A program made the translations under genes and the position numbers. Under the pieces are notes generated by a model, which was not told where the DNA came from, did not search any database, and saw nothing but the letters and a program-made list of their open reading frames with translations. From Phytomonospora endophytica (GTDB lineage: Bacteria; Actinomycetota; Actinomycetes; Mycobacteriales; Micromonosporaceae): a stretch of DNA of 64,000 nt. Position 1 is the first letter of the stretch; each line of letters opens with the position of its first letter. Location of the stretch: NCBI RefSeq assembly GCF_014202425.1, contig NZ_JACHGT010000021.1:29884-93883 (forward strand). Direction: 5' to 3'. Shown here in pieces: positions 4,501-59,982 of the stretch.

Positions 4501-6198
4501 ATGCCCACCGAAGACGCCGCCTCCGGCACCGCGCGCCGCACCCTTTTCCGCACCGGAGCGGGCGTCGGCATCGCCGCCCTGGGCGCCACGACGCTCGTCG
4601 CCGGCGCCACCGCCGCGCACGCCGAGGAGGCCGGGGAGGCCGCCGCGGCGGCCGCCGCCCCGAACCCCGCGTTCCCCAAGCACGAGCTGCGCGCCTCCTG
4701 GATCGCCAGCACCGTCAACATCGACTGGCCCAGCCGCCCCGGTCTGGACGTCGCCACCCAGAAGGCCGAGCTGATCCGCTGGCTCGACGAGGCCGTCGCG
4801 TACGGCTTCAACGCCGTCATGTTCCAGATCCGCCCGACCGCCGACGCGTTCTGGCCCTCGCCCCACGAGCCCTGGTCGCGCTGGCTGACCGGCGCGCAGG
4901 GCACCGACCCGGGCTACGACCCGCTCGCCTACGCCGTCGACGAGGCGCACAAACGCGGCCTGGAGATCCACGGCTGGTTCAACCCGTTCCGCATCTCCAT
5001 GAAGGCCGTCAGCGGCGACGTGGGCACCGACCCGTCGAAGCTCGTCGACGGTCACCCCGCCAAGGACAACCCCGACTGGGTCGTCGCCTACCCCGCCGAC
5101 GCCACCGGGCAGCTCTACTTCAACCCGGGCGTGCCCGAGGCGCGTCAGCACAACGTCGACGCGATCTGCCACGCCGCGGAGAACTACGACCTCGACGGCG
5201 TCCACTTCGACGACTACTTCTACCCCTACCCCGTCGGGACGCAGCAGTTCAACGACGACGCCACCTTCGCCGAGTACGGCGGCGACTTCACCGACAAGAA
5301 GGCGTGGCGCCGCCACAACGTCGACCTGTTCGTCAAGGCGATCTCCGACCGTCTCCGCGAGAACAAGCCGAACGTGAAGTTCGGCATCAGCCCCTTCGGC
5401 GTGTGGCGCAACAAGGCCGACGACCCGGTCCTCGGGTCCGACACCGCCGCCGGTGCGCCGACCTACGACGCCCTGTCCGCCGACACCCGCAAGTGGGTCA
5501 AGGAGGAGTGGATCGACTACATCGTTCCGCAGGTCTACTGGGCCGACTCCCTGGCCGTCGCCAGCTACGGCAAGATCGTGCGCTGGTGGGACGAGGTGTG
5601 CCGCGGCACGAACGTCCAGCTGTTCATCGGCGAGGCGACCTACAAGGTCAACGCCTCCACCCAGTCGCCCGAGTGGAACAACGACGCGCACGAACTCGAC
5701 CGGCACGTGGTCATGGGCCGCGAGCTGGCCGACGTCGACGGCAACATCTACTTCTCCGCGAAGTCGGTGCGCGCCAACGAGCTCAACGCCATGGGCATCA
5801 TCCGGGACACGCACTACCAGCGTCCCGCGCTGATTCCGCCCTCCGACGGCCGGTTGCGCCGTCCCGGTACCCCCCGCATCAGTGACTCGCGCTGGCGTGA
5901 GGGGAAGCTGGAGCTGCGCTTCGGCTGCGGTGACGAGCACGGCGGCCACGGTGGCCACGGCGGCGGGCACGGACGCCGTGAGGCGAGCTGGTTCGCGGTG
6001 TGGCGCTTCGACGGGCACCGCCGCCACGTCGAGGCCGGTGACATCGCCGACGCGACCGCGCTCGTCGGGCGCGTGCACGCCGACGCGGGCAAGTTCGTCG
6101 ACGCCACCGCCGTCAAGGGCAAGAAGTACACCTACGTGGTGACCGCCTACAACGGCGTGTGGACCGAGAGCAAGATCAGCAAGGCGCGCAAGGTCTAG
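4501..6198 (+). CDS. Secreted glycoside-hydrolase-like family 10 (GHL10/YngK/DUF4015-type) protein with C-terminal His/Gly-rich and beta-sandwich region
   Basis: ATG 4501 with GAAAGGA RBS and Tat-like signal RRTLFRTGAGVGIAALGATTLVAGATAAHA. The TIM-barrel-like core (…NAVMFQIRPTADAFW…GLEIHGWFNPF…) is typical of GHL10 proteins. Family from recall only. Confidence 0.6.
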   Translation: MPTEDAASGTARRTLFRTGAGVGIAALGATTLVAGATAAHAEEAGEAAAAAAAPNPAFPKHELRASWIASTVNIDWPSRPGLDVATQKAELIRWLDEAVAYGFNAVMFQIRPTADAFWPSPHEPWSRWLTGAQGTDPGYDPLAYAVDEAHKRGLEIHGWFNPFRISMKAVSGDVGTDPSKLVDGHPAKDNPDWVVAYPADATGQLYFNPGVPEARQHNVDAICHAAENYDLDGVHFDDYFYPYPVGTQQFNDDATFAEYGGDFTDKKAWRRHNVDLFVKAISDRLRENKPNVKFGISPFGVWRNKADDPVLGSDTAAGAPTYDALSADTRKWVKEEWIDYIVPQVYWADSLAVASYGKIVRWWDEVCRGTNVQLFIGEATYKVNASTQSPEWNNDAHELDRHVVMGRELADVDGNIYFSAKSVRANELNAMGIIRDTHYQRPALIPPSDGRLRRPGTPRISDSRWREGKLELRFGCGDEHGGHGGHGGGHGRREASWFAVWRFDGHRRHVEAGDIADATALVGRVHADAGKFVDATAVKGKKYTYVVTAYNGVWTESKISKARKV

Positions 6199-6211
6199 TC
6201 TCAATCCGGCG

Positions 6212-6252
6212 GTGCCGCCCCCGGTCTGGGCACGGAACGGGGGTGGCACCGC
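6212..6252. terminator. Bidirectional stem-loop between convergent genes
   Basis: GGTGCCGCCCCC…GGGGGTGGCACC inverted repeat immediately after the 6198 stop and before the 6263 stop. Confidence 0.5.
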
Positions 6253-6262
6253 TTCTCGGTGT

Positions 6263-6706
6263 CTAGGTCCAGCTGACGCCGTCGGCGGGGACGGCGCTGA
6301 TCTCGCCGCTGCCGTCGGTGCCGGCCGAACCCCAGTGGGTGTTGTCGGACCCGGCGGTGCCCCAGGGGTCGCCGTTGTTGCGCTCGCCGTCGGCGCCGAT
6401 GCCGAACAGCGCGGTGTTGCGGAATCCGGCGGCGTTCGACCGGCCCTCGGCGCCCTGGGACGCGTCCCAGCGATCGGAGTCGCCGCCCTCGCCGTCGCGT
6501 GCCGACTTCGCCGGCCAGACGAAGTCGGTCCAGCTCACGCCGTCCCGGTGTTCGACGATGCCGCCGTTGGAGTCCCACGGGTCGCCGTGGTCGACGGCCG
6601 CCCGGGCCCCGGCCCGGCCCGGTGTCGTGAACGCGATGACCGCGATGGCGGCCAGCGCGGCGAAGATCATGCCCGCCAGCAGGCGGATTCGTGCGGTGTC
6701 GCTCAT
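6263..6706 (-). CDS. Small secreted/membrane-anchored Trp-Gly-Asp repeat protein (147 aa)
   Basis: ATG 6704-6706 with GGAAGGAAA RBS. An N-terminal hydrophobic segment is followed by short repeats (GDPW, DGVSWT, RWDAS, HWGSAG). No recognisable family. Confidence 0.5.
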   Translation of the reverse strand: MSDTARIRLLAGMIFAALAAIAVIAFTTPGRAGARAAVDHGDPWDSNGGIVEHRDGVSWTDFVWPAKSARDGEGGDSDRWDASQGAEGRSNAAGFRNTALFGIGADGERNNGDPWGTAGSDNTHWGSAGTDGSGEISAVPADGVSWT

Positions 6707-6790
6707 GGGTTTCCTTCCCCGTGTGGTGGGAAGGGTGCGCACCCTCGTGGACTCAGGGTACGAAAATCGGCGGCGGCCGTGGGGGCACGC
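6707..6790 (-). promoter_or_regulatory. Conserved 5' leader/promoter element, copy 1 (shared with 7073..7160)
   Basis: About 70 nt are ~85 % identical to the region upstream of the next gene. It contains the palindrome GGGTGCGCACCC and the hairpin CCTTCCC-ACCACAC-GGGAAGG, whose 3' arm is the Shine-Dalgarno. Confidence 0.4.
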
Positions 6791-6892
6791 GGTGGCGAGG
6801 GTGCGCCGCGCGGGATCCGGCCGCCGGTGGGAGAACTCGCCGGAGAGGCGGCGGCGCCGTCCCCGCCCGGGCACGGCGCCGCCGCTTCACCG

Positions 6893-7072
6893 CTAGGCCC
6901 CGTCGGCGTTGTCGGCGGGCGTGGAGTCCGCCTTGCCGGTGTCGTCGACACCGCTGTCGTGGTAACCGTCGGCGGGTGCGGCGTCGTCTTCGGCGCCGCT
7001 GTCGTGGTAGCCCTCGTCGACGCCGCTGTCGTGGTAACCGTCGGCGGGCGTGGAGCCGGTCTTGTCGCTCAT
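6893..7072 (-). CDS. Small acidic tandem-repeat peptide (59 aa; DGYHDSG x3)
   Basis: ATG 7070-7072 behind the same GGAAGGAAACC leader as the 6263 gene. The product starts MSDKTGSTPADGYHDSGVDEGYHDSGAEDDAAPADGYHDSGVDD…. Confidence 0.45.
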   Translation of the reverse strand: MSDKTGSTPADGYHDSGVDEGYHDSGAEDDAAPADGYHDSGVDDTGKADSTPADNADGA

Positions 7073-7160
7073 CGTCGTGGTTTCCTTCCCCGTGTGGTGT
7101 GGGAAGGGCGCGCACCCCTTGGATCCAGCGTACGAAGTCCGGCGCTCACGCCGGGCGATC
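7073..7160 (-). promoter_or_regulatory. Conserved 5' leader/promoter element, copy 2
   Basis: Duplicate of 6707..6790, same motifs. Confidence 0.4.
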
Positions 7161-7162
7161 AC

Positions 7163-8213
7163 TCAGGCGCCTCTCAGCATCAGCCGCCGTCCCGGCCGCT
7201 CCACCCACTCGTGCAGCGCCCACGACAGCGCCAGGGAGATCCCACCCGCCAGGACCGTCAGTCCCAGCGCGGGAAACACCCCCGGCTGCGGATGTCGCGC
7301 CCACACGTACTCGCCGGTGCGGATCACCAGGATGTGCACCATGTAGAACGCGCAGGACAGCTCGCCGAGCCGCACCATCAGCGGGTGCCGCACGAGCGAG
7401 GGTCTCCCGTCCAGGCCGGACACCGCGCCGGCCACGATGAGCAGTCCGAAGCCGACGACCGTGCAGGCCGCGTAGCGGAAGGGCCCGGGCGAGAACACCG
7501 CCGCGGTCGCGTAGCCCATGGCGGTCACCGCCAGGGCGATCGGGTAGCCGACGCCGCGCCATGCCCCGAGCCGCACGAGCCTGGCCAGGGCGACGCCGAG
7601 GGCGAACTCGGCGAGCCGCACCGGCGGGAAGAAGTAGACGACGCGCGGTTCCAGGAACAGCGGCGCGAGCAGCACGATCGCCGTCGACGCGGCCGCGACC
7701 GCCCACAGCCACCGCGCTCGCAGCCTGCGGGTCAGCCGGAACAGCAGCGGGAAGGCCAGGTAGAAGAAGGCCTCGCAGGCCAGTGACCAGCTCACGGGGT
7801 TGAGCGACTGGTCGTATTCGGCGACGGGCACCCAGCTGTGCACGAGCAGGCAGTTCGCGGTGGCCGCCTCGACGGTCGGGATCAGTCCGGGGATGAGCTG
7901 GAGGGCCAGCAGGAGCGCGGCGGCCACGGTGACGACGTGTACGGGGTAGACGCGGGCGAGCCGGCGTCGCCAGAAGCGGACGGGGTCGTCGCCGTCACGC
8001 GCGGACCAGGCGAGGACGAAGCCGGACAGGATGAAGAAGGACACTTCCCGGTAGGGGGATTGCACAGCCCCCGCACAGCCAGCGCACCTGCTGCCCCGCT
8101 CCGTCGCCGTCGAAGTACCGCACAACGTGGACGTGCAGCCCGAAGACGAGGAGTGCGGCGAACCAGCGCATGCCGGTTAGTGAGGGAAGGTGCTCATTAC
8201 GGCTTTTGAGCAT
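7163..8213 (-). pseudogene. Acyltransferase family 3 (OafA-like) membrane protein, apparent frameshift near 8060-8120
   Basis: ORF 7995..8213 carries the N-terminal AT3 signature (LTGMRWFAALLVFGLHV). ORF 7163..8125 in another frame carries the rest (EVSFFILSGFVLAW…). The switch falls in a GGGGG/CCCCC-run region. Confidence 0.55.
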
Positions 8214-8301
8214 CGGGGGAGGGTAGCCGACGAAAATGTGAAGGCGGTTACAGTCCGCCCCTCTCAGCTTTTATCCCCGGGACGGCTGCGACAATCCGCC
8301 A

Positions 8302-9600
8302 GTGGCCGACATCCAGAGCACCGAAAAGTCGCGAGAACTCTTCGACCGCGCCGCACGGGTCGTGCCCGGTGGCGTGAACTCCCCGGTCCGGGCGTTCCGC
8401 TCGGTCGGCGGCGATCCCCGCTTCATGGTCAGCGGTGAAGGCTGCCGCATGACCGACGCCGACGGCAACACCTACGTCGACCTGGTGTCCTCCTGGGGCC
8501 CGCTCATCCTCGGCCACGCGCATCCGCACGTCATCGACGCCGTGACCGCCGCCGCCGTGAAGGGCACGTCCTTCGGGACGCCGACGCCCGGCGAGGTCGA
8601 CCTCGCCGAGGAGCTCGTCGCGCGCACGGGCGTCGAGCGCGTCCGCATGGTCAACTCCGGCACCGAGGCGACGATGACCGCGCTGCGCCTGGCGCGCGCC
8701 GCCACCGGCCGCACCAAGATCATCAAGTTCGCCGGCTGCTACCACGGCCACGTCGACCCGCTCCTGGCCGCGGCCGGGTCGGGCGTGGCGACCCTCGCGC
8801 TGCCCGACTCGCCGGGCGTCGTCGGCACCGACGAGACGATCGTCGCGCCCTACAACGACATCGACTCCGTGGCCAAGATCTTCGCCGAGCACGACGGTCA
8901 GATCGCCTGTGTCATCACCGAGGCCGCGGCCGGGAACATGGGCGTCGTCGCCCCCCGTGACGGGTTCAACCGCAAGCTCGCCGAGCTGTGCCGCGCCAAC
9001 GGCGCCCTGCTCATCCTCGACGAGGTCATGACCGGCTTCCGGGTGAGCAAGAACGGCTGGGCCGGGTTCTCCGGCGACACCGCCGACCTGTTCACCTACG
9101 GCAAGGTCATGGGCGGCGGCCTGCCCGCCGCGGCCTTCGGCGGCCGCGCCGAACTGATGGACATGCTCGCGCCCTCCGGCCCGGTCTATCAGGCGGGCAC
9201 CCTGTCGGGAAACCCCCTGGCCTGCGCCGCCGGTCTCGCGACCCTCCAGCTCTGCGACGACGACCTCTACGCCAAGCTCGACGCCGTCTCCCAGACCCTG
9301 GGTGAGGCCGCCGTCGCCGCCCTCACCGAGGCCGGTGTCCCGCACCGCCTGTCGCGGGCCGGGAACATGTTCAGCGTGTTCTTCACCGCAGACGACGTCT
9401 CCGACTTCGCCGGTGCCCAGGCCCAGAACGTCGCCGCCTACCGCGCCTTCTTCCACGAAATGCTGGCAAAGGGGGTCTATCTGCCCCCGAGCGCCTACGA
9501 GGCCTGGTTCGTCTCCGGCGCCCTCGACGACGAGGCCGTCGCACAGATCGCCGACGCTCTCCCGTACGCCGCGCGTGCTGCGGCTAAGGTCGCACCGTGA
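8302..9600 (+). CDS. hemL: Glutamate-1-semialdehyde 2,1-aminomutase
   Basis: GTG start. Full-length class-III aminotransferase with hemL-typical blocks ([39 protein letters not shown]). Confidence 0.9.
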
Positions 9601-53033: not shown

Positions 53034-53414
53034 ACGTGGCCTGCTTCCTGCGGTTTCGGGCGCGCCCGCCGATCGGACGCGAGAAGTCCACAGAGTGTGC
53101 CAGTTCGGTCACCGACCGTCGATCTTGGACAGAACGTGTTTTCTCGTTCTGGTGAGAAACGGTGAGAATCTCACCGATCAACCCCCTTTTTTGACCCCAG
53201 AAATGGGTGTAAATATTGATACGTTTCTGGTGAAACCGGCTCATTCTTCGCATTAGTTGTATGCGTCGCACAAGGGTCGTTGTGGGGATCCTGAAGACTT
53301 GATATTTCCGGGCAGGGACTCGCGTCTAACGGCGTGTCGCTTCCCCACGGGAAACGCTTCCCAACGGGAAGCGCCCCCGCCGACGAGTCGGCGGGGGCGC
53401 GGTAATGGGTTGGG
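53034..53414. promoter_or_regulatory. int-xis intergenic control region
   Basis: The most AT-rich stretch of the window (53161-53290). Tandem palindromes TTCCCCACGGGAA and CTTCCCAACGGGAAG (53339-53372) and hairpin CGCCCCCGCCGACGAGTCGGCGGGGGCG (53377-53404) lie downstream of int. Confidence 0.45.
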
Positions 53415-54650
53415 TTAGGCGGCGGCGGTCTCCGGCCTCTGCCGGGCCGACAGGCGCGCCAGGAGCGCCGTGGACACTGTCGCCACGGCGGCGGTATCAA
53501 CGGTGTCGTCATGGATGTAGGTTCGCGTGCTGCGCTCGCTTGAGTGCCCGATCACGGCGGCCAGGGTCCGGCCGTCCACGCGCGCCTTGCGCATCTCCGT
53601 GGCGTAGGTGTGCCGGTAGTCGTGCCCGGTCAAGGTCTCAAAGTCGGGAATGCGCGCCCGCTCGGCGGCCTTGCGCATGCGGTTGACGAACGTCCCCCGG
53701 TGCAGGTGGCGCCCGTCGCGGTCGGACAGCAGCACCGCGCCCCGGTGCTTCCCCTCGGCGCGGCCGGTGATCAGCGGCGCCAGCTCCGGCGCGTAGGGCG
53801 CCATGCGGAAACCCGCCTTACTCTTCGGGCCGACCTGCAACACGCGCTTGCCCGTGCCGTCGGGCTTGAACACCCACCGCACCTCGAATGACGCGATGTC
53901 CTCGTGAACGGACTCGCCGACCAGCAGCCCCGCCCACTCGCTGTAGCGCAGGCCCGTGGTCACCGCCACGACGGCCGGGTCATAGGCGTCCGGGCCCATG
54001 AGTGCCAGCTCATAGAACAGCGCTTCAAGGGCGCCCAGCCCCAACGCACGGCCCTCCCGCCCGTCTCCGCAGGGCTCGGGCACCAGGGACAACGGGTTGC
54101 GCTCCAGGACGGCCGGGGAGCCGTCCAGGCCGGGCCGGGAGAGATCATCGAAGACCGGTTCGAGCAGCCCCCGCCGGTAGGCGCGAACCGTCGTCGGCGC
54201 CAGTTTCCCACGCTCGCCGCCGACAGAGAGCAGATGGTCTTGCCACCCCTTCAGAACGGCCCCGGTAGCCTCCTGCGGCCAGTAGGCCGCGAGACCGTAT
54301 ACCGCATTGTCGATATGGGCGGCGGCGTTTCGCCGATACTGCGTCGCGCTGTACGCCTTGATACGGCCGTTGCGCTCGCGGTCGTCGATGCTGGCGTGAA
54401 TGAGTTCGCCCAGCTTCGGGCCGACCCCGACCGCGCCCGGGACGAGGTAGTCAAAGCCCATCGCGCGCAACTGCGCACGGTTCGGCCACCGATTCCGATT
54501 GAGGTCCACCAGCGCCTTGAAACGCTCCGCCTCGCCCGCGTCGGTGAACGTCTGAGATTGCGCCGCGCCGTCCCGCGTACCGCCCTCGTTCCATTTCACC
54601 CGGAGCGAGGTCTCACCGTTTTTACGCAGGCGTGACTCTATGCTGGCCAT
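53415..54650 (-). CDS. int: Tyrosine-type phage integrase
   Basis: Catalytic R (TGLRYSE), HxxR (HDYRHTYAT) and Y (STRTY) motifs. The SAM-like N-terminal domain is present. Confidence 0.85.
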   Translation of the reverse strand: MASIESRLRKNGETSLRVKWNEGGTRDGAAQSQTFTDAGEAERFKALVDLNRNRWPNRAQLRAMGFDYLVPGAVGVGPKLGELIHASIDDRERNGRIKAYSATQYRRNAAAHIDNAVYGLAAYWPQEATGAVLKGWQDHLLSVGGERGKLAPTTVRAYRRGLLEPVFDDLSRPGLDGSPAVLERNPLSLVPEPCGDGREGRALGLGALEALFYELALMGPDAYDPAVVAVTTGLRYSEWAGLLVGESVHEDIASFEVRWVFKPDGTGKRVLQVGPKSKAGFRMAPYAPELAPLITGRAEGKHRGAVLLSDRDGRHLHRGTFVNRMRKAAERARIPDFETLTGHDYRHTYATEMRKARVDGRTLAAVIGHSSERSTRTYIHDDTVDTAAVATVSTALLARLSARQRPETAAA

Positions 54651-54799
54651 AGCTGGCCCTCCATGATCCGTAGCGGTTCAGGGAGTAACCCGTCTGTCGC
54701 CAAACTGAGCGGGTGCTCCCAAGGTGCTCCCGAAATCTGCCGGGAGCACCGGAGGGCCAGCGTAATGCCTGGTCAGAGGATTGCCAAGACCGGCGCGTC

Positions 54800-54813
54800 A
54801 TAACGCACCGGTT
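54800..54813. repeat. attR core ATAACGCACCGGTT
   Basis: Direct repeat of 33233..33246. It is followed by GTGGACAACC, the host-type 3' end of element X, 27 nt before the ATPase start codon. Confidence 0.55.
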
Positions 54814-54848
54814 GTGGACAACCTGCCCGCCCGAGCGAGGAGCCCCCG

Positions 54849-57800
54849 ATGACCGACCCGAACACCCCGGCCGCGCCCGAAGCCGAGGCCGCGACCGACC
54901 GCCTCGACGCCGGCACCTACGAGGTCCTCCGCGCCCGCCTCGCCGACCAGGCCGCGAACCTCGCTCGCCGCGCCGAGGAGCTCAACACCCGCCGCCTCGA
55001 CGTCTTCGGCGGCACCGAACTCACCCTCCTGGGCACCGAGCGCATCCGCACGCTGAACAACTGCGTCCCGCGCGACATCGTCCAGGTCGGCGGCCGGATG
55101 CTGTTCGGCTACAACGTCTTCATCGGCCTGCGCCCCGAGACCACCGTCGACGACGTCTTCTCCCTCCACCGCTTCGAACGCGACGGCGACGCCTTCACCT
55201 TCACCGCGGCGGAGGCCTCCGGCGCCGCCGAACTGCCCGGCCTGATCGCCGATCCGCAGTTCCAGCGCGACTTCGCCGAGATGTACCGCTACTACCGCCA
55301 GACGCACCTCACGCAGCTGCGCCGCGTCGAGGGCCGCCTGCTCGCGGTCTTCCAGATCGGCGAGAAGCTCGCCGACCTGCGCGTGCTGCGCTGGACCGTC
55401 GCCGCCGACGGCTCGGTGTCCTATCTGGACAATCGCGGCGAGCGCGACCACGTCTTCCCGGCCTCGCATGACTTCGAGTGGACCGAGACGACACGCGACG
55501 ACCACGTCCTCGGCCGTTTCCCGCACATCTCGATCGGCGGGGAGGTCTTCGTCGAGACCGTCAACGGCGACCTGACCATCAAGATCGAGAACAACACCGA
55601 GTCCGGTGAGGGCATCTACCGCGAGCCCGTCGACGAGCCCCTGCAGAGCCTCGCCGACGCCGAGGTGGCCTACGCCCGCGTCGGCGCGCTGATCCTGCTG
55701 CGCATCCGCCCGTACAACGAGAAGGCCGCGCGGCACCTGGTCTTCAACACCCGCACCAAGTCCGTGCACCGGCTCGACGGGATCGGCCAGTCCTGCCGCA
55801 CGCTGCCCGAGGACCAGGGCATCATCTTCCCCGGCGGCTACTACCTCGCCACCGGCGTGGCCAAGACCTTCGACGCCGACGTCGCCGACCTGGAGTTCGA
55901 GCGCGTCCTGCGCTCGCCCAACGGCGAGGACGTCCTCTACGTCTTCCACGAGCGCGCCGAGGGCCGCACGCTTCTGTTGCCCTACAACGTGATCCGCAAG
56001 GAGGTCGCGAGCCCGCTGACCTGTCACGGGTACTCGCTGTTCGACGACGGCACGATGGTCGCCTTCCGCGCCAACGGCGAGGAGCCTTCGCGGGTGCACC
56101 CGATGCAGGTGTGGCAGACGCCGTTCGTGTCCGACACCTTCGCGGCCGCGCAACCGGTCGGAACCGGTCCCCTGGAACGGATCGGGAACGCCGAACTGGT
56201 CCGCGGGGTCTCCGACTGCCTGTCGGTGGCGCGGATGGTCGGCGAGATGGCGCCCTCGATCGAGGTCTACGAGGCGCTCATCGCGACCTGCGTGCGCGCG
56301 ATCGACAACTACCACTGGCTCGGGGACGAGGCCCTCGGCGGCCTGCGCGATCCCCTCGACGGTGTGCGCGCCACGGCCGAGCAGGTCCTCGACGAGTACG
56401 AGACCGTCCGGGAACTGACGGCCCAGTCGGCCGATGCGGTGGAGCGGGCCGCGGCCGAGACGGCGTCGATGATCCGCCGCTCCAGCGGCGAGGCGCCCAA
56501 GACCGCCGACGCCTGGGTCTCCCAGCTCGCCGAACTGCGTGGAGCGCAGGGCCACCTGATCACCCTGCGCGACATGCGATACGTCGACCTCGCGCGACTG
56601 TCCACTCTGGACGACGCGGTGGCCGGTGAGCTCAAGTCGGCCGCCGGGCGGGCGGTGGCCTTCCTGGAGGGCCCCGACGCCTTCGCCGGCTACCACGACT
56701 CCATCGACCGCCTTACCGCCGACGCCGAGGCGATCGCGAGCGTCGCCCAGTCGACCCCGCTCACCCAGCGGCTGGCCGAGCAGACCGCCGGACTCGAAGT
56801 CCTCACCGAGGTCGTGTCCACACTCGACATCGCCGACGCGACCGTCCGCACCCAGATCCTGGAACGGATCGGCGAGGTGCTGGCCGGTGTCAACCGCGCC
56901 CGCGCGACCCTGGACGCCCGCCGCCGTGAACTGCTGTCGGCCGAAGGCCGCGCCGAGTTCGCCGCCGAGTTCGCCCTCCTCGGCCAGGCCGTCACGGGCG
57001 CGCTCGCCGCGGCCGGGACGCCCGAGGCCTGCGACGAGCAGCTCGGCCGCCTCATGCTCCAGCTGGAGAACCTGGAGTCCCGCTTCGGCGAGTTCGACGA
57101 CTTCCTCGGCGAACTGGCCGCCAAGCGCACCGACGTCTACGAGGCCTTCTCCTCGCGCAAGCAGACCCTGCTCGACGAGCGCGCCCGCCGCGCCGAACGC
57201 CTCGCCGACTCCGCCGCGCGGATCCTCGACAGCGTCAACCGGCGGGTGTCCACACTGGACTCCCTGGACGCGGTCAACACCTACTTCGCCACCGACCCGA
57301 TGGTGTCGAAGCTGCGTTCGGTCACCGAGGAGCTGCGCGCGCTCGGCGACCAGGTCCGCGCCGAGGAACTGGCCGGCCGGATCAAGGCCGCGCGTCAGGA
57401 GGCCGGGCGTTCGCTGCGCGACCGCCAGGACCTCTACGACGGCGGCGGTGAGACGATCCGCTTCGGGCAGCACCGGCTGCCGGTCAACACCCAGCCGCTC
57501 GACCTGACGCTGGTACCGCAGGACGGACGGCTGGCGTTCTCGCTCACCGGCACCGACTACCGCAGCCTCGTCACGGATCCCGCCTTCGCCGAGACCCACG
57601 CCTACTGGGACCAGCTGCTGGTCTCCGAGACCGCCGAGGTCTACCGCGCGGAGTACCTCGCGTCGTCGATCCTGGCCGACGAACTGGCCGCCGGGCGGAT
57701 CCTCCAGCTGCACGAGGCCGCCGTCGGCGACGGGCTGCCCGCCAAGGTCCGCGAGGCCGCCGAGTCCCGCTACGACGAAGGCTACGAGCGCGGTGTGCAC

Positions 57801-59831
57801 GACCACGACGCCACCGAGATCTTGCGCGTCATGCTGCGCCTCTACGAGGCCGCCGGTCTCCTGCGCTACCCGCCGGACGCGCGCGCGGCCGCCCAGCTCT
57901 ACTGGGCCTACGGCCCCGCCGAGACCGACCGGGCCGGGCTGCTGACCCGGATCGGTTCCCTGGCAAGGGTTCGCGAGGTCTTCGGGCTCCCGAAGGCGAT
58001 GGGCGACCTGCTCGCCGAACTGGCGACCGCGATCGCCGCCTTCCACGCCGACCGCGAACTCCCGGGCGTCACCGACCCCGCGCTGGCCGCCGAGTACCTC
58101 TTCGAGGAGCTCGCCGGGTCCCGCAACGGGTTCGTCACCAGCGCCGCCGCCAAGTCGCTCGTGCAGCGTTTCCGGGCCGCCCTCGGCGGACCGGGATCGG
58201 CGCGGCTGGCCGGATACGAGGAGGACCTGCGCGGTCTCGGTGACGACCTCGCCGCCCGCCACCAGCTCGTCACGGCCTGGCTGGGCGCGTTCCTGTCGTC
58301 GACGGGTGAGGGCGACGTCGACCTGCCCGAGGCCGTCGCGGTCGAGGTCCTCGGTAAGGAACTGCCCCGCCGCGACTCCTCGGCGACGTTGACGGCCACA
58401 GTGGACGGTCTACTGGGGACACATCCGCGGATCGAGGCCCGGAAGATGGGGTTGCGCCTCGACGAGGTGCTCGCCCGCACCACCCGCTTCCGTCGCGAGC
58501 GCGTGCCCGGTTTCCGTTCCTACCAGCGGATCCGTAACGCCCTCGTGGACGCCGAGCGCGGCCGTCTGCGCCTCGACGAGTACAAGCCGAAGGTGTTGAG
58601 CTCCTTTGTGCGCAACCGCCTCCTCGACGAGGTGTACCTGCCGCTGATCGGCGCCAACCTGGCCAAGCAGATCGGTGCGGCCGGCGACGACAAGCGCACC
58701 GACCAGTCGGGCATGCTGCTGCTGATCTCCCCGCCCGGGTACGGCAAGACGACGCTCATGGAGTACGTCGCCTCCCGTCTCGGTCTGGTCTTCGTCAAGG
58801 TCAACGGCCCCTCGCTCGGCCACGACGTGACCTCCCTCGACCCCGCCGACGCGCCCAACGCGACCGCGCGTCAGGAGGTCGAGAAGATCAACTTCGCGCT
58901 CGAAGCGGGCGGGAACGTCCTGCTGTACCTCGACGACATCCAGCACACCTCGCCGGAACTGCTGCAGAAGTTCATCTCGCTGTGCGACGGGCAGCGCCGG
59001 ATGGAGGGCGTCTGGGGCGGCCGGACCAAGACCTACGACCTGCGCGGCAAGCGCTTCGCCGTCTGCATGGCCGGCAACCCCTATACCGAGTCCGGGCAGC
59101 GCTTCCGGATCCCCGACATGCTCGCCAACCGCGCCGACGTGTGGAACCTCGGCGACGTCCTGTCGGGCCGGGAGGAACTCTTCTCCCTGAGCTACCTGGA
59201 GAACTCGCTCACCTCCAACGCCGTCCTCGCGCCACTGTCCACAAGGGAACGCGGCGACGTGGAGGTGCTGGTGCGGCTGGCCTCCGGCGACGCCTCGGCC
59301 ACCCCCGAGCAGCTCGCGCACCCCTACTCGCCGACCGAGCTCGAACGCGTCCTCTCGGTACTGCGCAAGCTCCGCCACGTGCAGAAGACCGTGCTGGCCA
59401 ACAACCAGGCCTACATCGCCTCGGCCGCCCAGTCCGACGCCGCCCGCACCGAACCGCCGTTCCAGCTGCAGGGCAGCTACCGCAACATGAACAAGCTCGC
59501 CGAGCGGGTCGTGGCCGCCATGAACGACGACGAGGTCGAGGCCGTCATCGACGACCACTACCTCGGCGAGGCCCAGACCCTCACCAGCGGCGCCGAGGCG
59601 AACCTCCTCAAACTCGCCGAACTGCGCGGGCGGCTCACCCCCGAGCAGGCCGCGCGCTGGGCCGAGGTCAAGGAGGGCTTCCTGCGGGCCCGCGCCCTCG
59701 GCGGCGACGGCGACGACCCGATGAGCCGCGCCGTCGGCGCCGTCGGGCTGCTCGCCGACCGGGTCGGCTCGGTGGAGAAGGCGATCCGGCAGGCGTCGGG
59801 GGGAGTGGGCCAGCCGGGCGTGACTGGGTAA
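54849..59831 (+). CDS. Very large (1660 aa) AAA+ ATPase, MoxR/dynein-related C-terminal ATPase domain
   Basis: GAGGAG RBS. Long helical N-terminal two-thirds, then C-terminal Walker A LLISPPGYGKTTL, Walker B VLLYLDDIQH and sensor motifs. Confidence 0.7.
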   Translation: MTDPNTPAAPEAEAATDRLDAGTYEVLRARLADQAANLARRAEELNTRRLDVFGGTELTLLGTERIRTLNNCVPRDIVQVGGRMLFGYNVFIGLRPETTVDDVFSLHRFERDGDAFTFTAAEASGAAELPGLIADPQFQRDFAEMYRYYRQTHLTQLRRVEGRLLAVFQIGEKLADLRVLRWTVAADGSVSYLDNRGERDHVFPASHDFEWTETTRDDHVLGRFPHISIGGEVFVETVNGDLTIKIENNTESGEGIYREPVDEPLQSLADAEVAYARVGALILLRIRPYNEKAARHLVFNTRTKSVHRLDGIGQSCRTLPEDQGIIFPGGYYLATGVAKTFDADVADLEFERVLRSPNGEDVLYVFHERAEGRTLLLPYNVIRKEVASPLTCHGYSLFDDGTMVAFRANGEEPSRVHPMQVWQTPFVSDTFAAAQPVGTGPLERIGNAELVRGVSDCLSVARMVGEMAPSIEVYEALIATCVRAIDNYHWLGDEALGGLRDPLDGVRATAEQVLDEYETVRELTAQSADAVERAAAETASMIRRSSGEAPKTADAWVSQLAELRGAQGHLITLRDMRYVDLARLSTLDDAVAGELKSAAGRAVAFLEGPDAFAGYHDSIDRLTADAEAIASVAQSTPLTQRLAEQTAGLEVLTEVVSTLDIADATVRTQILERIGEVLAGVNRARATLDARRRELLSAEGRAEFAAEFALLGQAVTGALAAAGTPEACDEQLGRLMLQLENLESRFGEFDDFLGELAAKRTDVYEAFSSRKQTLLDERARRAERLADSAARILDSVNRRVSTLDSLDAVNTYFATDPMVSKLRSVTEELRALGDQVRAEELAGRIKAARQEAGRSLRDRQDLYDGGGETIRFGQHRLPVNTQPLDLTLVPQDGRLAFSLTGTDYRSLVTDPAFAETHAYWDQLLVSETAEVYRAEYLASSILADELAAGRILQLHEAAVGDGLPAKVREAAESRYDEGYERGVHDHDATEILRVMLRLYEAAGLLRYPPDARAAAQLYWAYGPAETDRAGLLTRIGSLARVREVFGLPKAMGDLLAELATAIAAFHADRELPGVTDPALAAEYLFEELAGSRNGFVTSAAAKSLVQRFRAALGGPGSARLAGYEEDLRGLGDDLAARHQLVTAWLGAFLSSTGEGDVDLPEAVAVEVLGKELPRRDSSATLTATVDGLLGTHPRIEARKMGLRLDEVLARTTRFRRERVPGFRSYQRIRNALVDAERGRLRLDEYKPKVLSSFVRNRLLDEVYLPLIGANLAKQIGAAGDDKRTDQSGMLLLISPPGYGKTTLMEYVASRLGLVFVKVNGPSLGHDVTSLDPADAPNATARQEVEKINFALEAGGNVLLYLDDIQHTSPELLQKFISLCDGQRRMEGVWGGRTKTYDLRGKRFAVCMAGNPYTESGQRFRIPDMLANRADVWNLGDVLSGREELFSLSYLENSLTSNAVLAPLSTRERGDVEVLVRLASGDASATPEQLAHPYSPTELERVLSVLRKLRHVQKTVLANNQAYIASAAQSDAARTEPPFQLQGSYRNMNKLAERVVAAMNDDEVEAVIDDHYLGEAQTLTSGAEANLLKLAELRGRLTPEQAARWAEVKEGFLRARALGGDGDDPMSRAVGAVGLLADRVGSVEKAIRQASGGVGQPGVTG

Positions 59832-59982
59832 GCGGGGTGCGACGGTCCGCTGGGAGGCCGGTGCGGGGTCGCGTTCGGGGCGACCGCGTGAGACGGATTC
59901 TCGTCCGTCCGGGATGTCGTACCTCGCCGGTATCGTCGCTGTTGGGGCCTCCTTCGCGGGCGTGGGCACGTCGCGTCCCGAA

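What the first reader, a model, noticed from the sequence alone, without database searches (positions are those of the whole stretch)
6263..7160. Two adjacent small secreted or acidic repeat-peptide genes share a duplicated ~70-nt leader with an SD-sequestering hairpin
Upstream of both the 147-aa and the 59-aa gene the mRNA reads …GGGTGCGCACCC-CUUCCC-ACCACAC-GGGAAGG-AAACC-AUG, ~85 % identical over ~70 nt. A perfect 12-nt palindrome is followed by a hairpin whose 3' arm is the GGAAGG ribosome-binding site. This looks like a duplicated promoter plus translational control element, in the RNA-thermometer or riboregulator style, governing two non-homologous repeat peptides that both begin MSD.
Basis: seen in the sequence. 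Interest (0 to 1): 0.6.

Follow-up and report, generated by a model that had tools for sequence, protein, structure and literature searches.

The report
Duplicated promoter-leader with ribosome-site-masking hairpin
Two neighbouring orphan small-protein genes of the actinomycete Phytomonospora endophytica carry copies of the same roughly 70-base promoter and leader, whose very stable hairpin hides the ribosome-binding site; it is real and conserved in related strains, but it belongs to a familiar class of control element and was found at this one locus only.

Summary
Genes A (147 aa, 6263-6706, minus) and B (59 aa, 6893-7072, minus) are each preceded by the same ~65-nt block, 83-86% identical. 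Each block has a -10-like hexamer (TACCCT / TACGCT), a GC palindrome (perfect in A only) and a 7-bp hairpin, CCUUCCC/GGGAAGG, whose 3' arm contains the Shine-Dalgarno.

The organism is Phytomonospora endophytica. I found two more copies at the same locus in Phytomonospora-like metagenome contigs: L039, in front of a different 79-aa secreted peptide, and L044, fused to a deletion remnant of gene A. The hairpin arms are identical in all four copies, while the loops vary from 6 to 11 nt.

There is no Rfam match. No further copy turned up in about 74 kb of this genome, in related loci, or in the pattern scans of public genomes and metagenomes.

The hairpin is too stable (-10 to -11 kcal/mol, still folded at 75 C in silico) to be an RNA thermometer. 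SD-occluding structure is also not rare near neighbouring gene starts.

Best reading: a lineage-restricted promoter plus translation-damping leader, duplicated before these strains diverged, that drives fast-evolving orphan peptides in a hypervariable slot. The palindrome may be an operator. Moderate-to-low interest.

The parts
6263..6706 (-). Gene A: 147-aa orphan protein with an N-terminal hydrophobic, signal-like segment and Trp-containing repeats (GDPW, DGVSWT, NTHWGS)
   Evidence: ORF. 100% identical to a P. endophytica hypothetical protein (P0001). The only homologue among 1.84 billion representatives is P0002 from a Phytomonospora MAG. GC3 is 0.95. No Pfam, NCBIfam or PADLOC match. Evolves fast: 80% aa identity to the MAG orthologue, with indels, against 95% for the adjacent GHL10.
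6707..6773 (-). Leader A: the conserved block from GCCGAT through the SD to the base before the ATG
   Evidence: Alignments. The nhmmer profile hit spans 6699-6797.
6755..6760 (-). -10-like hexamer TACCCT of leader A; inferred transcription start at the A at about 6748
   Evidence: All four copies read TAnnCT, with T1, A2, C5 and T6 invariant and positions 3-4 varying (TACCCT, TACGCT, TATCCT, TACGCT). Each has a purine 7 nt downstream (sequences). This is inference only: no TTGACA-type -35 was found and there is no transcript-start data.
6733..6744 (-). Perfect 12-nt palindrome GGGTGCGCACCC, at about +5 to +16 of the inferred transcript
   Evidence: L039 has GGGATGCGCATCCC, a perfect 14-mer whose changes are symmetric. 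As an RNA hairpin it is weak, at -3.5 kcal/mol.
6713..6734 (-). Hairpin H2 of leader A: anti-SD arm CCUUCCC (6728-6734), 8-nt loop, and SD-containing arm GGGAAGG (6713-6719)
   Evidence: -11.2 kcal/mol, and the four SD bases lying in the stem stay paired from 15 to 75 C in silico.
6841..6892 (-). Long GC-rich inverted repeat immediately after the gene B stop codon; a likely terminator that separates unit B from unit A
   Evidence: Inverted repeat I1: 25-nt arms, 88% complementary. It has no U-tract, so its terminator function is inferred.
6893..7072 (-). Gene B: 59-aa acidic orphan peptide with three (D/E)GYHDSG repeats and no signal peptide
   Evidence: ORF. The only database match is itself (P0003). 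27-nt tandem repeat. GC1/2/3 of 0.70/0.52/0.92 is typical of coding sequence here.
7073..7147 (-). Leader B: the paralogous copy of the conserved block. It holds the -10-like TACGCT (7127-7132), an inferred start at about 7120, the imperfect palindrome (7106-7117) and hairpin H2 (7084-7107)
   Evidence: H2 is -10.3 kcal/mol with a 10-nt loop.
6209..6252 (.). Inverted repeat between the convergent GHL10 gene (stop at 6198) and gene A (stop at 6263); a likely bidirectional terminator
   Evidence: Inverted repeat I2: 18-nt arms, 89% complementary. This sequence is conserved in L038 and L044.

Best explanation
The repeated block is a self-contained expression module that was duplicated in tandem in a Phytomonospora ancestor. 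Each copy carries a housekeeping-type promoter with only a -10 element (TAYSCT). This would give a 42-48-nt 5' UTR that starts about 7 nt downstream. The dominant structure of that UTR is a perfect 7-bp hairpin, CCUUCCC-loop-GGGAAGG, which buries the Shine-Dalgarno (AAGGA) in its 3' arm. The ribosome must overcome roughly 7-10 kcal/mol to reach the site. The leader therefore keeps translation of the downstream small ORF low, or makes it depend on something that opens the stem: an RNA chaperone or helicase, an sRNA pairing with the C/A-rich loop and anti-SD arm, or initiation during transcription before the stem closes. The palindrome just after the inferred start is probably a second, transcriptional control point, an operator for an unknown dimeric regulator.

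Shown: the duplication, the conservation in four copies from three lineages, the invariant arms with variable loops, and the in-silico stability.

Inferred: the promoter and start site, the effect on translation, and any trans-acting partner.
For: 1. Two copies in the window are 83-86% identical while the gene bodies are unrelated.

2. There are two further copies at the same locus. L039 lies upstream of a 79-aa secreted peptide that shares only an NTHWGS motif with gene A. L044 lies next to the acyltransferase gene.

3. A and C share upstream sequence (GTGCCCCCAYGG), and B and D share GAGCGC. The duplication therefore predates the split of these strains, and both copies kept the same core.

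4. The A-C leader identity of 0.82 exceeds the 0.66 identity at four-fold-degenerate sites of the adjacent GHL10 gene in the same genome pair. It is far above the conservation of the downstream proteins.

5. Both hairpin arms are identical in all four copies, while the loop between them varies in length (8, 10, 6 and 11 nt) and in sequence. This fits selection on an RNA stem, not on a spaced DNA site.

6. The hairpin is -10.1 to -11.2 kcal/mol, and it is present in the predicted minimum-energy fold of every copy.

7. The SD opening energies rank 2nd, 6th and 8th of 55 gene starts.

8. Strong inverted repeats follow each gene, so gene A at least needs its own promoter. The TAnnCT hexamer is the only promoter-like element inside the conserved block.
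Against: - There is no covariation. All seven stem pairs are invariant, so the structure rests on conservation and thermodynamics alone, with only four sequences.
- The 3' arm is constrained anyway because it is the SD.
- B-D identity (0.86) is barely above the neutral proxy (0.80).
- SD-occluding structure is fairly common in these GC-rich leaders. Examples are the DUF6653 gene of L039 (opening energy 9.6 kcal/mol) and the GHL10 leaders, whose SD window is about 80% paired.
- There is no TTGACA-type -35 and no transcript-start data. Gene B could be co-transcribed with the upstream acyltransferase gene.
- In L044 the leader persists without any ORF, so conservation there may simply reflect how recent the deletion is.
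Confidence: 0.45

Rival explanations
1. It is an ordinary promoter and ribosome-binding site kept similar by shared ancestry. On this view the hairpin and the palindrome are incidental products of GC-rich sequence and have no dedicated regulatory role.
For: Predicted SD-occluding structure is common at neighbouring gene starts; A, B and C are in the upper tail but are not unique. B-D identity (0.86) is close to the 0.80 identity at four-fold sites. There is no covariation. The element was found at one locus only.
Against: The 8-nt anti-SD block CCCTTCCC is invariant in four copies, while the adjacent loop and the spacer between the -10 hexamer and the palindrome change freely. The A-C identity of 0.82 is well above the neutral proxy of 0.66. 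The palindrome kept perfect dyad symmetry through two symmetric changes in L039. A perfect 7-bp anti-SD/SD stem occurs nowhere else in 64 kb, and never in the shuffles.
Confidence: 0.25
2. The main control is on DNA. The palindrome GGGTGCGCACCC / GGGATGCGCATCCC, centred about 10 bp downstream of the inferred start, is the operator of a dimeric repressor that co-regulates both genes. The SD hairpin is secondary. This partly overlaps with the best explanation.
For: The dyads are perfect 12-14-bp sequences in three of four copies, and the differences in L039 are symmetric. As RNA the palindrome is weak (-3.5 to -4.8 kcal/mol), and in the minimum-energy folds the stronger hairpin takes the two shared C's instead. 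The position just downstream of the inferred start is the usual place for a repressor.
Against: Copy B breaks the DNA dyad at one position in a way that still allows a G-U pair in RNA. The GGG/CCC flanks in L039 sit 1 bp further from the centre on each side, which many DNA-binding dimers would not tolerate. There is no regulator gene in the slot. No further copy of the palindrome occurs in the window, for instance in front of a regulator gene.
Confidence: 0.2
3. The structured 5' UTR mainly protects these short mRNAs from 5'-end-dependent decay, acting as a 5' stabiliser rather than regulating translation.
For: Stable structure begins within about 5-15 nt of the inferred 5' end in all copies. 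This resembles known 5' stabiliser hairpins such as those of ompA, aprE and ermC (general knowledge).
Against: A stabiliser has no need to pair specifically with the SD. The 5'-most element (the palindrome) is the weak one. The transcript start is only inferred.
Confidence: 0.07
4. It is an RNA thermometer of the ROSE or fourU type, which melts on temperature upshift to free the SD.
For: The SD lies in the 3' arm of a hairpin directly upstream of the start codon.
Against: The stem is perfect and G/C-rich, with no bulges or non-canonical pairs. The four SD bases lying in the stem are predicted to stay paired from 15 to 75 C (mean pairing probability over AAGGA 0.80 falling to 0.72). No Rfam thermometer family matches, even at E<=10. 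The downstream genes are not chaperone or virulence genes.
Confidence: 0.02
5. It is a dispersed repeat or a fragment of a mobile element that happens to sit in front of these genes.
For: The slot between GHL10 and the acyltransferase gene carries different cargo in every strain examined.
Against: Only the two copies occur in the 64-kb window plus 10 kb beyond it. There is none in L038, L040 or L001. There is no convincing plasmid hit and no phage hit. The pattern scans of 185,579 species genomes and of the JGI metagenomes returned only chance hits plus the single syntenic contig L044. There are no terminal repeats and no transposase.
Confidence: 0.02

Closest known systems
SD-sequestering RNA thermometers (ROSE, fourU and the like)
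   Same: A short 5' UTR in which the Shine-Dalgarno forms the 3' arm of a hairpin just upstream of the start codon.
   Different: The stem is a perfect 7-bp helix with five G-C pairs, at -10 to -11 kcal/mol. It has none of the weak or non-canonical pairs that allow melting at physiological temperature. No Rfam match. The downstream genes are orphan peptides, not heat-shock or virulence genes.
Trans-activated, self-inhibited leaders (such as rpoS opened by DsrA/RprA, or chaperone- and helicase-dependent leaders)
   Same: An intrinsically closed ribosome-binding site that would need an outside factor to open. The C/A-rich single-stranded loop could serve as a landing site.
   Different: The UTR is only about 45 nt long. 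No partner sRNA or protein has been identified. Nothing here tests activation.
Riboswitch expression platforms
   Same: The SD/anti-SD helix acts as the output element.
   Different: There is no room for an aptamer, no conserved multi-helix core, no covariation and no Rfam hit.
Operator palindromes overlapping the transcription start (classical repressor sites)
   Same: A 12-14-bp dyad immediately downstream of a -10 element, with its symmetry preserved between strains.
   Different: No cognate regulator or regulon is known. One copy is imperfect, and the flank spacing differs in L039.

Membership tests
RNA thermometer (ROSE / fourU type) | The SD is paired in a hairpin weakened by mismatches, bulges or A-U/G-U pairs, so that it melts at about 30-42 C | tested here: not met
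   Perfect CCUUCCC/GGGAAGG stem at -10.1 to -11.2 kcal/mol. SD pairing is unchanged from 15 to 75 C in ViennaRNA partition functions for all four copies.
RNA thermometer (ROSE / fourU type) | Matches a curated covariance model | tested here: not met
   cmscan of 5500-8500 on both strands at E<=10 gave six weak hits. None overlaps either leader and none is a thermometer family.
RNA thermometer (ROSE / fourU type) | Temperature-dependent translation in vivo or in vitro | not testable with these tools
   Needs reporter fusions or toeprinting.
Riboswitch | A conserved ligand-binding aptamer with covarying helices upstream of the expression platform | tested here: not met
   The inferred UTR is 42-48 nt and holds only the palindrome and one hairpin. 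There is no Rfam hit. RNAalifold finds one pair with a double change.
Housekeeping (sigma-70/HrdB-type) actinobacterial promoter | A -10 hexamer of the TANNNT type | tested here: met
   TACCCT, TACGCT, TATCCT and TACGCT sit at the same position in the four copies. T1, A2 and T6 are invariant.
Housekeeping (sigma-70/HrdB-type) actinobacterial promoter | A -35 hexamer resembling TTGACA at a spacing of 16-18 nt | tested here: not met
   The consensus scan found no site in 6150-7250. The -35 region is not conserved between the A/C and B/D copies. Many actinobacterial promoters lack a -35 (general knowledge), so this does not exclude promoter function.
Housekeeping (sigma-70/HrdB-type) actinobacterial promoter | A mapped transcription start 6-8 nt downstream of the -10 | not testable with these tools
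   No transcript data. The purine at +7 in all four copies is only suggestive.
Dispersed intergenic repeat / MITE | Many copies scattered through the genome, independent of gene starts | tested here: inconclusive
   Only two copies occur in 64 kb plus 10 kb. No Phytomonospora hit came from the exact-pattern scan of species genomes. That scan did not return the window's own two exact matches, so this genome or region is absent or masked there. The rest of the genome could not be read.
Cis-regulatory leader conserved upstream of orthologues | Present at the same position in related genomes | tested here: met
   L039 (GHL10 81% aa identity) and L044 (91%) carry it at the syntenic position. L038 has different cargo and no leader. 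In the MAG contig L001 the sequence ends about 40 nt short of where the leader would be.

The most novel reading that the evidence does not exclude
The leader may be a portable 'expression cassette' that has been retained for longer than any of its cargo. On this reading, a conserved promoter, operator and locked-SD module sits in a hypervariable slot and repeatedly acquires or spawns new, fast-evolving small ORFs: a 147-aa Trp-repeat secreted protein, a 59-aa acidic His-repeat peptide and a 79-aa Cys-terminated secreted peptide. It would be opened by a still unknown lineage-specific trans-factor. That would make it a new riboregulatory class, and a natural example of gene birth and turnover downstream of a duplicated leader.
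Probability: 0.12. Interest if true: 0.6.

Novelty: new member of a known kind. Interest (0 to 1): 0.3.

Why it matters
If the leader really gates translation, it would be a compact, undescribed control element from a little-studied endophytic actinomycete. It could be tested easily, and perhaps reused as a tight low-leak expression part in high-GC hosts.

The pattern is also a neat small case of regulatory sequence outliving coding sequence at a hypervariable locus: the leader is conserved while the orphan peptides behind it turn over. One of those peptides has no homologue among 5.8 billion proteins.

The significance is limited. The element is known from four copies at a single locus in one genus, and its general mechanism, an SD/anti-SD hairpin, is textbook.

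Tried and rejected
- **Rfam**: nothing overlaps either leader.
- **Pfam, NCBIfam, PADLOC and PDB sequence searches** for the peptides: nothing.
- **Homologue searches**: gene A has one homologue and gene B has none, so orthologue leaders could not be collected through the proteins. I used the neighbouring GHL10 gene as a syntenic anchor instead.
- **Exact-pattern scan of 185,579 species genomes** for hairpin plus SD: 36 hits scattered across unrelated phyla. These are chance matches. The window's own copies were not returned, so the source genome or region is absent or masked there.
- **Metagenome pattern scan**: 17 hits, of which 16 were chance. One, L044, was real.
- **The MAG orthologue of gene A**: contig L001 stops about 40 nt before the leader, and the hemL contig L059 stops before the acyltransferase gene.
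- **Possible third, decayed leader copy** at 6791-6806 (repeat finder D5): not significant against shuffles (10 of 500 for A, 296 of 500 for B).
- **Homology between the gene A and gene B bodies**, including alternative frames: none beyond the leader.
- **Plasmid and phage collections**: no meaningful hit.
- **Column-based pair counting**: abandoned because MAFFT shifts the L039 copy by one column. Stem conservation was read directly from the sequences instead.
- **ECF-sigma and WhiG-type promoter readings** of TCGTA / GCCGAT: considered from memory and dropped, because no matching -35 element is present.
- **Literature search**: nothing on this element or on gene regulation in Phytomonospora.

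Full report
**What is in the sequence**

The window is 70.6% G+C. It matches Phytomonospora endophytica of the Micromonosporaceae: the 147-aa product is 100% identical to a hypothetical protein of that species.

The region is transcribed on the minus strand. Gene A is 6263-6706 (147 aa) and gene B is 6893-7072 (59 aa). Both show the codon-position G+C profile of real genes in this genome: GC1/2/3 of 0.66/0.61/0.95 for A and 0.70/0.52/0.92 for B, against 0.70/0.51/0.93 for hemL.

Each gene is followed by a long GC-rich inverted repeat. One lies at 6841-6892, after B. The other lies at 6209-6252, between A and the convergent GHL10 gene. They therefore look like two separate transcription units, although no U-tract terminator is detected.

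**The repeat is real**

In mRNA sense, the leaders read:
- A: CGCCGATTTTCGTACCCTGAGTCCACGAGGGTGCGCACCCTTCCCACCACACGGGGAAGGAAACCC-ATG
- B: CGCCGGACTTCGTACGCTGGATCCAAGGGGTGCGCGCCCTTCCCACACCACACGGGGAAGGAAACCACGACG-ATG

They are 86% identical over 59 nt by blastn (E 5e-14) and 83% identical over 63 ungapped positions. The similarity runs into the first three codons, ATGAGCGAC. Beyond that the two genes share nothing detectable, in any frame.

The inverted repeat CCTTCCC-N-GGGAAGG occurs only at these two places in 64 kb, and never in 100 shuffles. The 12-nt palindrome is perfect in A (6733-6744) and has one dyad mismatch in B (7106-7117).

**Related sequences**

Gene A has a single homologue among 5.8 billion and 1.84 billion sequences. 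It comes from a Phytomonospora MAG, whose contig ends about 40 nt short of the leader. Gene B has none.

I therefore used the adjacent GHL10 glycosyl-hydrolase-like gene as an anchor. The slot between GHL10 and the Acyl_transf_3 gene turned out to be hypervariable:

| Genome or contig | Content of the slot |
|---|---|
| P. endophytica (window) | genes A and B |
| Phytomonospora sp. NPDC050363 (L038) | esterase fragment plus a Fic gene |
| Farmland metagenome contig (L039) | DUF6653 gene plus a 79-aa secreted peptide |
| Actinorhabdospora filicis (L040) | nothing |

L039 carries a third copy of the leader, directly upstream of the 79-aa gene: GCCGATTCTCGTATCCTGAACCGGCTGGGATGCGCATCCCTTCCCCACCAAGGGAAGGAGTCTCACC-ATG. 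That peptide shares only an NTHWGS motif with gene A.

A pattern scan of JGI metagenomes gave one genuine hit among 17. This was L044, a close relative with 91% GHL10 aa identity. There a fourth copy sits next to the acyltransferase stop codon. It is fused to the last ~14 codons of gene A with no start codon. This is a deletion remnant that lacks the equivalent of window 6288-7079.

A profile built from the four copies finds nothing else in:
- the rest of the window;
- 10 kb beyond its right end;
- the other Phytomonospora and Actinorhabdospora loci.

An exact hairpin-plus-SD pattern scan of 185,579 species genomes returned only scattered chance hits. That scan did not return the window itself, so the source genome or region is absent or masked there. 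Plasmid and phage collections gave nothing, and Rfam has no match.

**Conservation pattern**

All four copies share these blocks:
- TCGTA-YS-CTG, which contains a TAnnCT hexamer read here as the -10 box;
- the TGCGC core of the palindrome;
- CCCTTCCC;
- GGGAAGGA.

The variable parts are the spacer between the hexamer and the palindrome, the hairpin loop (ACCACACG, ACACCACACG, CACCAA, ATCACTTCACG) and the stretch between the SD and the ATG.

A and C share upstream sequence that B and D lack, and the reverse is also true. The duplication is therefore older than the split of these strains.

A-C identity (0.82) exceeds the identity at four-fold-degenerate sites of GHL10 in the same genome pair (0.66). 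B-D (0.86) is close to its neutral proxy (0.80).

The cargo evolves fast. Gene A is 80% identical, with indels, to its MAG orthologue. Its first and second codon positions (0.87, 0.88) are barely better conserved than its third (0.81). The adjacent GHL10 is 95% identical at the protein level.

**Structure**

The hairpin CCUUCCC/GGGAAGG is worth -10.1 to -11.2 kcal/mol on its own. It appears in the minimum-energy fold of all four UTRs. It keeps the four SD bases that lie in the stem paired at every temperature from 15 to 75 C in silico. That argues against a thermometer.

Invariant arms with loops of 6-11 nt fit an RNA stem better than a spaced DNA site. However, there is no covariation and only four sequences, and the 3' arm is constrained anyway as the SD.

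The palindrome would make only a weak RNA hairpin (-3.5 to -4.8 kcal/mol). It shares two C's with the anti-SD arm, and in the minimum-energy folds the stronger hairpin takes them. RNAalifold, by contrast, prefers the palindrome helix with a shortened SD hairpin.

The palindrome's symmetry is preserved through symmetric changes in L039. In copy B the single dyad mismatch would still allow a G-U pair. The evidence therefore does not decide between an operator and an RNA helix.

As a background check, I computed the energy needed to open the best SD-like hexamer for 55 gene starts from these loci. A, B and C rank 2nd, 6th and 8th, at 9.8, 8.5 and 7.3 kcal/mol. This is the upper tail but not unique. 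For example, the DUF6653 gene of L039 has an SD-occluding stem and ranks third, and the GHL10 leaders have highly paired SD windows in the pairing-probability scan.

**Interpretation**

The most economical reading is a lineage-restricted expression module: a -10-only promoter, a possible operator at about +5 to +18, and a 5' UTR that locks the SD. It was duplicated in tandem and kept under selection while the small ORFs behind it turned over.

The inferred transcription starts (about 6748 and 7120), the effect on translation and any opening factor remain inferences.

The rival readings are these:
- an ordinary promoter and RBS with incidental structure;
- control mainly through the operator;
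- a 5' mRNA stabiliser.

The thermometer and dispersed-repeat readings are disfavoured by the tests above.

**Verdict**

It is an undescribed instance of a well-known kind of element, known so far from four copies at one locus in one genus. Interest is moderate to low.

Noticed in passing
window 7163-8213 (minus strand): The Acyl_transf_3 gene upstream of gene B appears frameshifted. Its N-terminal part (MLKSRNEHLPSLTGMRWFAALLVFGLH..., ORF 7995-8213) is in a different frame from the rest (ORF 7163-8125). The orthologue in L044 (3757-5058) reads through in one frame, and L038 has an intact 347-aa gene. This is either a pseudogene or a sequencing error.
   Followed up: partly
window ~6200-7160; L038 11696-13552; L039 3798-4752; L040 11660-11663; L044 5059-5250: The slot between the GHL10 gene and the acyltransferase gene holds different cargo in every genome examined: genes A and B; an esterase fragment plus Fic; a 79-aa peptide plus DUF6653; nothing; and a leader plus a gene-A tail remnant. 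It is a local hotspot of gene turnover.
   Followed up: partly
L044 5070-5186 (+): Here the leader is fused directly to the last ~14 codons of gene A (..HWGSIGADGVSWT*) with no start codon. This is a roughly 0.8-kb deletion relative to the window that removed gene B, leader A and most of gene A.
   Followed up: yes
L039 ~4727-4746 (minus strand), upstream of the DUF6653 gene: A perfect 20-nt palindrome, TGTTCAGTTCGTACTGAACA, sits in the promoter region of the DUF6653 gene. It looks like a separate operator. It shares the string TTCGTAC with the leader's -10 region, possibly by chance.
   Followed up: no
window ~5920-5985 (+), inside the GHL10 gene: The P. endophytica GHL10 carries a Gly/His-rich insertion (GCGDEHGGHGGHGGGHGRRE). 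It is absent from the L044 orthologue, which reads GCDRRTSW at that point (translations).
   Followed up: no
L038 9956-10006 and L039 2049-2099 (upstream of GHL10): The GHL10 leader also has a predicted stem that pairs UUUCCU with the SD-like AAAGGA, and it is conserved between the two loci. SD-occluding structure is therefore not special to genes A and B in this lineage.
   Followed up: partly
window 6212-7786 (+) and 6318-6896 (+): Long antisense ORFs (524 and 192 aa) run across both small genes and their leaders. They share third codon positions with the annotated genes, which is the usual high-GC artefact and not evidence of coding.
   Followed up: partly
window ~53400-59850 (= L060 756-7172): A phage-type integrase gene lies next to a 1660-aa DUF3686/AAA protein gene and a small HTH gene. 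This may be an integrated element, and it is unrelated to the finding.
   Followed up: no
window 6791-6806 (minus strand), upstream of leader A: GCGCACCCTCGCCACC resembles the leader core GCGCACCCTTCCCACC in 14 of 16 positions. It could be a decayed third copy, but the match is not significant against shuffles.
   Followed up: yes
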